Of a stretch of 64,000 nucleotides of DNA, positions 19,600-19,989 are shown in pieces. Made by a program: the position numbers and the translations under genes. The DNA comes from Rhina ancylostomus (lineage: Eukaryota). Location of the stretch: the NCBI GenBank assembly GCA_030265395.1, contig JARFYF010000084.1, positions 80,441,613 through 80,505,612 on the forward strand. Reading direction: 5' to 3'. Each line of letters begins with the position of its first letter. Position 1 is the stretch's first letter. Under the pieces are notes generated by a model that saw only the letters and a list, made by a program, of their open reading frames with translations, searched no databases and had not been told where the DNA came from.

Positions 19600-19989
19600 C
19601 GTCCAATATGTCAACACACCTTGAGGGAACTCCTGCTTAGTAGTCAAATTAGGATCAGCAAGATTCACTAAGCATTGTGTTAAAACACCGAGTTCCTTAG
19701 CCGTATGTCCCTTATTAACAGTAAGTGTAACATGTGGATGGATTAATCCCGTCTGCTTCCACATCATCTCTGGCACTTCTACAATCAGGGCTGTTCCCTG
19801 CCGTCCCTCAACTTTCCCTGTCAAGCGTACATTTACTGTGTGTCCTTCATACGCCTCGTAGAAATGCTCTTGCTCCCAATCATGACCAGTGGGATCATAG
19901 CACAGGGTGACATGAGGGTTCAGCAGGCCAGAAAAGAGTGGCTCCAAGGCAAGGTCTACTGACCACCACTGGGGTGGGCTGACTGCCAT
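19600..19989 (-). pseudogene. 2H-phosphoesterase (CNPase/2',5'-PDE-like) domain inside the Pol polyprotein, between protease and RT
   Basis: ORF 19333..19989 has two H-x-T-hydrophobic motifs, PHVTL at 19903-19917 and PHVTL at 19723-19737, 60 codons apart, followed by GHTAKELG. It runs in frame into the RT N-terminus. Confidence 0.75.

What the first reader, a model, noticed from the sequence alone, without database searches (positions are those of the whole stretch)
19600..19989. Retroviral Pol carries an extra 2H-phosphoesterase-like domain between protease and RT
Seen: about 130 codons separate the protease GRDLL motif from the RT N-terminus (IPDKVWS...PQYPL). They contain two identical PHVTL motifs 60 codons apart, and the frame is still open. 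Established: paired H-x-T/S motifs are the catalytic signature of the 2H superfamily (CNPase, LigT, AKAP7, coronavirus ns2 and rotavirus VP3 2',5'-phosphodiesterases). Canonical gammaretroviral Pol has no such insert, although I recall similar inserts in some teleost retroviruses, so novelty may be limited to this host lineage. Inference: a virion-packaged enzyme released by the protease. It could degrade 2-5A or cyclic-nucleotide immune messengers, or open 2',3'-cyclic phosphates on cleaved RNA or tRNA primers.
Basis: partly seen in the sequence, partly recalled or inferred. Interest (0 to 1): 0.78.

Follow-up and report, generated by a model that had tools for sequence, protein, structure and literature searches.

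The report
CNPase-like enzyme inside fish retrovirus Pol
A dead retrovirus in this genome carries, between its protease and reverse transcriptase, an extra domain predicted to fold like the host enzyme CNPase; such inserts were already noted in fish retroviruses, and this one likely opened cyclic-phosphate ends of RNA or small nucleotides for the virus, which remains untested.

Summary
Real, but largely known. The minus strand holds a decayed class I endogenous retrovirus with a ~145-residue insert (19555-19989) between protease and RT. Its two PHVTL motifs lie 60 codons apart. Three retroviral lineages in this genome carry the insert. Changes shared between copies show purifying selection (dN/dS 0.23, like PR and RT); private changes are neutral (0.96). 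Relatives sit at the same place in skate, ray, catshark, cichlid and zebrafish proteins. A confident model (pLDDT 94.6) matches CNPase (Z 14.4; next 2H protein 7.8; ns2, VP3, Acb1 and AKAP7 at 5.3-6.7). Its best viral matches include walleye retrovirus proteins. Reviews already report CNPase/2H domains in fish retroviruses, and this scan found the same architecture in two other genomes. Added here: a compact form lacking the first helix, confined to one RT clade whose named hosts are all cartilaginous fishes. Most likely a virion-packaged 2',3'-cyclic-phosphate hydrolase; cGAMP breakdown is the main rival; 2-5A is less likely because ray-finned fishes, reported to lack OAS-RNase L, also carry it. 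My searches found no functional test.

The parts
19555..19989 (-). 2H phosphoesterase domain of CNPase-type fold, compact form (about 145 aa), between protease and RT
   Evidence: AlphaFold2 pLDDT 94.6, pTM 0.86; CNPase Z 14.4, rmsd 3.5, 144 aligned; Foldseek CNPase and a fungal RNA kinase entry (6u05) first
19903..19917 (-). First HxT motif (PHVTL; His26 of the model, codon 19914-19912), at the start of strand 26-32
   Evidence: kept in 30 of 44 sister copies that cover it
19723..19737 (-). Second HxT motif (PHVTL; His86, codon 19734-19732), at the start of strand 86-91
   Evidence: kept in 39 of 48 sister copies that cover it
20037..20380 (-). Retroviral aspartic protease, broken into two reading frames and out of frame with the insert in this copy
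   Evidence: DTGA 20278, GRDLL 20087; Pfam RVP E 0.029 for the C-terminal piece, below cut-off
20381..20584 (-). End of gag (CCHC-type zinc-knuckle remnant) and in-frame TGA stop before the protease
   Evidence: sequence; TGA in 14 of 15 loci aligned at this junction, window included
18051..19554 (-). Reverse transcriptase and tether, broken by frameshifts and a stop
   Evidence: Pfam RVT_1 E 2.9e-7 and 8.4e-12, RT_RNaseH_2 E 1.3e-9; nearest solved structures are p80 RT/RNase H entries, E 9e-34 (that these are MLV/XMRV is recalled)
16560..18050 (-). RNase H and integrase with MLV-type C-terminal domain, broken
   Evidence: Pfam RNase_H, rve, Integrase_H2C2, MLVIN_C
20616..21984 (+). env tail, LTR (from 20933), primer-binding site (about 21377-21394) and leader of the same virus family, inverted relative to pol in this assembly
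   Evidence: matches upstream or downstream of pol, in pol's orientation, in sister loci L059, L063, L068, L075, L076; env tail, LTR and PBS read from the sequence
22088..22197 (-). Start of a second LTR copy in pol's orientation, cut by an assembly gap
   Evidence: 103 of 110 bases identical to 20933-21042

Best explanation
This decayed class I (epsilon-like) endogenous retrovirus carries in pol, between protease and RT, a conserved two-histidine domain predicted to have the CNPase fold, which likely worked as a virion-packaged enzyme that opens 2',3'-cyclic phosphates. Shown: position, paired HxT motifs, conservation in three lineages here and in cartilaginous and bony fish proteins, purifying selection on shared changes, and broad congruence with the RT tree. 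Predicted: CNPase-type fold. Inferred from retroviral biology: made as part of Gag-Pol by read-through of the gag stop, packaged, cut free by the protease and delivered with the core. Inferred from the fold (established CNPase chemistry, recalled): one histidine activates water and the other protonates the leaving 3'-oxygen, leaving a 2'-phosphate and a free 3'-OH. The likely substrates are cyclic ends left on tRNA primers or viral RNA by metal-independent host RNases, or free 2',3'-cNMPs. Odds: about 0.95 that it is a 2H domain, about 0.9 that it is CNPase-type, about 0.5 that cyclic phosphates are the main substrate. This copy itself is not functional as a virus.
For: Fold: VIA-align 2 over 48,161 chains gives CNPase 2xmi Z 14.4 (rmsd 3.5, 144 aligned), the only chain at Z 8 or more; the next are other 2H proteins at 7.8 or less. 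Foldseek on PDB: 34 hits at E 0.001 or better, the listed ones being CNPase/RICH structures and fungal entry 6u05. Alignment-free support: ESM Atlas features of the window protein and of a family B copy both give a tRNA_lig_CPD cluster at 0.96 (the second below the recognition threshold). The profile search retrieved P0020, which passes the tRNA_lig_CPD cut-off (E 1.2e-5). Selection: shared changes 35 synonymous / 26 non-synonymous (dN/dS 0.23; 0.15 in family B) against singletons 47 / 147 (0.96); Fisher p 3e-6; PR and RT pieces give 0.05-0.24. Context: PR upstream and RT downstream in 24 of the 30 best loci, one flank in the other 6; insert found upstream of 15 of 20 further RT loci, with 3 of the 5 misses at contig ends. 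The third lineage aligns at both motifs (probability 95, E 3e-8). The insert and RT trees share their main groups. Relatives occur in cichlid and zebrafish proteins, and ray-finned fishes lack OAS-RNase L (PMC10400998 passages).
Against: No activity data. A fold does not fix the substrate: viral 2H enzymes vary widely in specificity (bioRxiv 2025.08.21.671373, abstract and first results). Identity to CNPase is only about 12%; profile comparison with the host CNP exon is not significant (probability 0.4-2.6). No Pfam 2H family passes cut-off for the window protein, and the best is Acb1, not CNPase (E 0.035-0.14); PHROG 755 gives E 0.004. Two of the 42 rows used for the model are non-retroviral 2H proteins, and the N-termini of the long forms appear misaligned in that alignment. 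The His-His geometry was not measured. The walleye matches are labelled envelope polyproteins; if the domain lies in Env there, a role tied to RT priming is weakened. The host also has OAS, an RNase L exon and STING, so immune-messenger substrates exist.
Confidence: 0.5

Rival explanations
1. The domain is a cyclic-dinucleotide nuclease: delivered with the incoming core, it would destroy 2'3'-cGAMP made when cGAS senses reverse-transcribed DNA, as avian poxvirus 2H enzymes do.
For: 2H folds have been turned to cGAMP cleavage repeatedly (PMC13577500 passages; bioRxiv 2025.08.21.671373). The host has STING. Weak Pfam Acb1 matches in 9 of 30 aligned copies. The Pol position would deliver it at the time of DNA synthesis (inference).
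Against: Acb1 (Z 6.2), the penguinpox cGAMP PDE (5.4) and a phage PDE (7.0) score far below CNPase (14.4). The Acb1 sequence matches are below cut-off and cover about 20 residues around one motif. cGAS itself was not searched.
Confidence: 0.28
2. The domain is a 2',5'-phosphodiesterase that would degrade 2-5A and block RNase L, like coronavirus ns2 and rotavirus VP3.
For: This host encodes several OAS genes and an exon whose best solved-structure match is RNase L (E 6e-5). The pathway is reported functional in a cartilaginous fish (PMC10400998 passages). The compact form occurs only in cartilaginous fishes among named hosts.
Against: ns2 (Z 6.3), VP3 (6.7) and AKAP7/AKAP18 (5.3) are not the nearest folds. 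The homologous insert is kept in cichlid and zebrafish elements, whose hosts are reported to have lost OAS-RNase L.
Confidence: 0.12
3. The domain acts mainly without catalysis, for example as a decoy against host CNP, which binds retroviral Gag and blocks assembly, or as a nucleotide-binding or structural helper of RT.
For: Mammalian CNP restricts HIV-1 assembly independently of its enzymatic activity (PMC5758531 passage). The host has a CNP gene.
Against: Both catalytic motifs are kept across lineages only 20-45% identical (His in 36 of 38 and 36 of 39 rows of alignment A4), which points to catalysis or at least phosphate binding.
Confidence: 0.07
4. The stretch is a neutral linker or a chance motif pair in decayed DNA.
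For: No curated family passes cut-off; the first, shallow-alignment model was poor and matched no 2H protein.
Against: Purifying selection, conservation across cartilaginous and bony fish elements and a confident 2H model.
Confidence: 0.01

Closest known systems
CNPase-like domains of teleost endogenous retroviruses (Basta et al. 2009, seen only as cited in PMC4977317) and 2H domains of fish retroviruses including walleye dermal sarcoma virus (Mazumder et al. 2002, seen only as cited in PMC9503650)
   Same: A 2H/CNPase domain in class I fish retroviruses. The model's best viral matches are WEHV1 Q9WHI8 (E 2e-9), an unnamed entry Q2VF30 (8e-7) and WDSV A4GTG3 (3e-6). Cichlid and zebrafish Pol proteins carry the homologous insert at the same place.
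   Different: The host is most likely a cartilaginous fish (inferred from the nearest named relatives and from OAS plus RNase L). The form here lacks the helix between the first strand and the first HxT motif that the teleost-type form appears to have. The walleye matches are labelled envelope polyproteins, not Pol; their aligned range was not shown. Where Basta et al. place the domain could not be read.
Vertebrate CNPase / fish RICH catalytic domain (PF05881; PDB 2xmi, 1woj, 2i3e)
   Same: Predicted fold over the whole domain (Z 14.4, 144 residues aligned); two HxT motifs at strand starts.
   Different: About 145 versus about 215 residues; about 12% identity; no PF05881 match; part of a viral polyprotein; activity untested.
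Fungal tRNA ligase cyclic phosphodiesterase domain (PF08302; Foldseek hit 6u05) and related stand-alone protist/phage proteins
   Same: Second-best Foldseek hit (E 8e-5); nearest named Atlas cluster (0.96); P0020 links the families by sequence.
   Different: No ligase or kinase partner lies beside it; the window protein itself does not score on PF08302.
Viral immune-evasion 2H phosphodiesterases: coronavirus ns2, rotavirus VP3, phage Acb1, avian poxvirus cGAMP PDE
   Same: 2H superfamily, HxT pair, carried by a virus.
   Different: A different 2H subtype by structure (Z 5.4-6.7 against 14.4 for CNPase). The papers on these enzymes that I term-searched have no occurrence of 'retrovir' in their main text.

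Membership tests
2H phosphoesterase superfamily | Two HxT/S motifs, conserved among homologues | tested here: met
2H phosphoesterase superfamily | Two-lobed 2H fold with each motif at the start of a strand | tested here: met
   model pLDDT 94.6, strands 26-32 and 86-91; the 12 best VIA-align rows are all 2H proteins
2H phosphoesterase superfamily | Both histidines face one cleft | not tested
   distance not measured; implied only by the full-length structural match to CNPase
2H phosphoesterase superfamily | Metal-independent phosphodiester hydrolysis | not testable with these tools
   needs an assay
CNPase / tRNA-ligase-CPD subtype | Structure closer to CNPase than to other 2H subtypes | tested here: met
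   Z 14.4 against 7.8 or less; Foldseek ranking
CNPase / tRNA-ligase-CPD subtype | Sequence-profile match to PF05881 or PF08302 above cut-off | tested here: not met
   no such match for the window protein; only the distant relative P0020 passes PF08302. It is therefore CNPase-like, not a member of the Pfam CNPase family.
CNPase / tRNA-ligase-CPD subtype | 2',3'-cyclic phosphate converted to 2'-phosphate | not testable with these tools
   needs an assay
AKAP7 / ns2 / VP3 2',5'-phosphodiesterases | Nearest structure or profile is AKAP7-like (PF10469) | tested here: not met
   these structures are listed but rank well below CNPase (Z 5.3-6.7); no PF10469 match
Acb1-like cGAMP nucleases | PF23474 above cut-off, or nearest structure Acb1 | tested here: not met
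   14.3 bits against a cut-off of 27; Z 6.2. This lowers membership, not the possibility of cGAMP cleavage.
Class I (gamma/epsilon-like) endogenous retrovirus | gag-stop-pro-pol in one frame, RT tether, MLV-type integrase C-terminus, LTR and PBS, env | tested here: met
   env seen only as a tail fragment
Genus-level placement (Epsilonretrovirus) | RT phylogeny with reference viruses | not tested
   no reference WDSV/MLV sequences were available to the tree

The most novel reading that the evidence does not exclude
Retroviruses of jawed fishes captured a CNPase-type domain once, early, and have carried it in Pol through both cartilaginous and bony fish lineages. A stripped-down version evolved in the shark-and-ray viruses. 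It is a core-delivered nuclease that destroys a nucleotide immune messenger (2'3'-cGAMP, or 2-5A where RNase L survives): a retrovirus-encoded second-messenger-degrading enzyme.
Probability: 0.3. Interest if true: 0.8.

Novelty: new member of a known kind. Interest (0 to 1): 0.42.

Why it matters
The architecture is known on paper but, as far as my ten literature searches reach, has not been tested. If it opens cyclic phosphates, it points to an RNA-end-healing step in retroviral replication that mammalian retroviruses do without. If it cleaves cGAMP or 2-5A, retroviruses join poxviruses, coronaviruses and phages as users of 2H enzymes against nucleotide immunity. The 145-residue domain is small, stop-free in this copy and confidently modelled, so the substrate question can be answered directly in vitro. 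It also looks like a minimal natural version of the CNPase fold, an enzyme whose own physiological substrate is debated (recalled).

Tried and rejected
Word-index protein searches with the single sequence found nothing; with the alignment they found one ray protein. Sequence searches of solved structures gave no 2H match with the single sequence or with four alignments. tblastn of phage records and a scan of viral contigs found no relative. The first AlphaFold model, from 30 copies of two close families, was poor (pLDDT 46) and its fold search was uninformative; it was set aside for the deeper alignment. Profile comparisons with the host CNP exon were not significant, so capture from a vertebrate CNP gene is not shown. 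In the insert tree the two non-retroviral 2H proteins fall on long branches with weak support, and host CNP was not included, so the donor is unresolved. The RT tree is the quick version, without a formal congruence test. Of the 27 hits, five were left out of the modelling alignment: P0018 and P0024 (repeat proteins, likely spurious), P0013 (too short), P0008 (nearly the same as P0005) and P0001 (second motif disrupted). RNase L first seemed absent because only IRE1 exons passed; a looser search found an RNase L-like exon, so that argument against 2-5A was dropped. Expression: no RNA holder was listed. Two RNA runs of a related species label gave 76 and 122 reads, nearly all under 95% alike, so they come from other copies and say nothing on this locus. 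Dating by LTR divergence was not attempted beyond 7 differences in 110 bases, because the assembly is gapped and rearranged there. A second VIA-align look at the Foldseek hits could not be run because the machine was busy, so 6u05 has no Z-score. PF08302 found nothing in this genome or in the controls. Basta 2009, Mazumder 2002 and the journal version of Doherty 2025 are not held. No supplements were read; the Doherty preprint's tables could list retroviral entries.

Full report
Observation. The minus strand of 16.5-20.6 kb holds the end of gag, a protease, an insert, RT, RNase H and integrase of a retrovirus broken by frameshifts and stops. PHVTL lies at 19917-19903 and 19737-19723, with the histidines 60 codons apart, in a stop-free frame (20016-19336) that continues into the RT N-terminus. 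Such a motif pair arose in 146 of 20,000 shuffles.

The element. RT tether and MLV-type integrase C-terminal domains, p80 RT/RNase H structures as nearest solved relatives and an in-frame stop between gag and protease (TGA in 14 of 15 aligned loci) make it a class I retrovirus; the genus was not tested. An env tail, LTR, primer-binding site and leader at 20616-21984 belong to the same family but are inverted relative to pol, unlike in five sister loci; a second LTR start lies at 22197 on the minus strand beside a gap. This is either a rearrangement or a mis-assembly. The host is most likely a cartilaginous fish: the nearest named relatives are from Mobula, Amblyraja, Leucoraja and Scyliorhinus, and the genome has OAS and an RNase L-like exon. 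This is inference only.

Sister copies. The insert gave 151 matches in the own genome from 150 scored of 264 candidates, a lower bound. They form a close family A (about 55-90% identical) and a family B (30-50%). Protease lies upstream and RT downstream in 24 of the 30 best loci; the other six show one flank. The protease C-terminal piece and the insert share a frame in 11 of 24 family A sisters with both hits, and a skate protein reads PR-insert-RT-RNase H-IN unbroken (P0005). Motif 1 is kept in 30 of 44 and motif 2 in 39 of 48 sisters that cover them; losses include misread frameshift tails. Of 20 further RT loci that I picked because they were not in the earlier lists, 15 had the insert upstream and three of the five misses end at a contig edge. 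Two of them revealed a third lineage, C (81 matches). It aligns with A/B at both motifs (probability 95, E 3e-8) and keeps them in 12 of 19 and 17 of 30 fetched copies.

Selection. Pairwise dN/dS within A is 0.45 for the insert against 0.29-0.51 for PR and RT pieces. Changes shared by three or more copies give 0.23 (A) and 0.15 (B), as in PR and RT (0.05-0.24); changes seen once give 0.96 and 0.97 (Fisher p 3e-6 and 2e-7; singletons do not differ from neutral). So the domain was constrained while the viruses replicated and has decayed since integration. Shared changes are not independent events, so the p-values overstate certainty.

Range. A profile search of 1.84 billion representatives gave 27 hits at E 0.001 or better. 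Most are retroviral proteins with the insert after the protease or before RT, named from skates, a catshark, an electric ray, cichlids and zebrafish. Two are non-retroviral; one of these, P0020, passes the tRNA_lig_CPD cut-off. Two are likely spurious. Trees of the insert (52 rows) and of the RT N-terminal part (35 rows, quick method) share their main groups. Carriers of a compact form (A, B, skate, catshark and Mobula elements) make one RT clade (support 99); lineage C, Narcine, cichlid and zebrafish elements have a long form and group in the insert tree (100/99). The long form has about 15-25 extra residues, helix-like by sequence, between the first strand and motif 1. This fits one old capture inherited with pol, but no congruence or clade test was run and the donor is unresolved.

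Fold. Sequence alone gives only hints: Pfam Acb1 E 0.035-0.14, PHROG 755 E 0.004, and 2H families in a minority of rows. The ESM Atlas gave 0.96-0.97 to phage hypothetical proteins and a tRNA_lig_CPD cluster. A first model was poor. With 42 diverse rows AlphaFold2 gave pLDDT 94.6 and pTM 0.86, with each motif at a strand start and no helix before motif 1. VIA-align 2 ranks mouse CNPase first (Z 14.4, rmsd 3.5, 144 aligned). The other 2H proteins follow at 7.8 or less: VP3 6.7, ns2 6.3, Acb1 6.2, penguinpox PDE 5.4, AKAP18 5.3. Foldseek agrees (CNPase, RICH and fungal entry 6u05). Among viral models the best are WEHV1 and WDSV proteins labelled envelope polyprotein and an unnamed entry.

Mechanism. 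Inferred from retroviral biology: synthesis within Gag-Pol, packaging, release by the protease and delivery with the core. Inferred from the CNPase fold: hydrolysis of 2',3'-cyclic phosphate to 2'-phosphate and 3'-OH, on RNA ends cut by host RNases or on free cyclic nucleotides (about 0.5). Rivals: cGAMP breakdown (0.28; STING present), 2-5A breakdown (0.12; the pathway is present in this host, but reported lost in ray-finned fishes, whose elements keep the domain) and a non-catalytic role such as a decoy for host CNP (0.07). Viral 2H enzymes differ widely in substrate, so only an assay decides.

Prior knowledge. PMC4977317 (passages) says some ray-finned-fish ERVs encode a CNPase or macro domain, citing Basta 2009. 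PMC9503650 (passages) lists 2H domains in fish retroviruses and WDSV, citing Mazumder 2002. Neither primary paper was held. Term searches in the elephant-shark ERV paper (PMC4422223) and a zebrafish ERV survey (PMC8672886) found no mention of such a domain. Term searches in three papers on viral 2H enzymes found no 'retrovir', and a review passage on viral PDEs names no retrovirus in the part shown. Ten library searches (listings seen) showed no functional study and no report from cartilaginous fishes; the library omits most subscription journals and no supplements were read. This scan's notes record the same architecture in two other genomes, one a shark; the search by sequence returned nothing.

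Verdict. A real, once-functional CNPase-like 2H domain in fish retroviral Pol; a new member of a known kind, with a compact variant and an untested function. Interest 0.42.

Noticed in passing
window 20616-21984 (+) and 22088-22197 (-): The env tail, LTR, PBS and leader of the same family are inverted relative to pol, and a second LTR start lies across an assembly gap; rearrangement or mis-assembly.
   Followed up: partly
window 20381-20383 (-); L003-L029: The gag-pro junction has TGA in 14 of 15 aligned loci, mostly followed by C, rather than the amber stop recalled for gamma- and epsilonretroviruses.
   Followed up: partly
window 21377-21394 (+): The primer-binding site resembles the 3' end of a serine tRNA (recalled, not tested).
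   Followed up: no
BFVD entries Q9WHI8 and A4GTG3: The walleye retrovirus matches are labelled envelope polyproteins, so the same fold may sit in Env in those viruses and in Pol in these: a relocation or a second capture.
   Followed up: no
P0004, P0005, P0006, P0012: Skate- and catshark-type elements shorten the link between the first strand and motif 1 still further, to about 7-10 residues.
   Followed up: partly
L057-L058 (G000:C119, about 19.322-19.327 Mb): This sister locus holds tandemly repeated pieces of RT.
   Followed up: no
L051-L054 (G000:C46:27.159-27.198 Mb), C104:89.88 Mb; L134 (C63:64.417 Mb): A cluster of at least three OAS-like genes, one with stops, a further OAS-like locus and an RNase L-like exon in the host.
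   Followed up: partly
P0007 (Amblyraja), P0014 and P0021 (Sarotherodon): Database proteins named as host genes (zinc finger 271-like, RAD9B, neuronal calcium sensor 1) are in fact retroviral Pol or Pol fused to other sequence.
   Followed up: no
window 43425-43581 and 57152-57308: A two-copy 157-nt direct repeat, 85% identical, probably an interspersed repeat.
   Followed up: no
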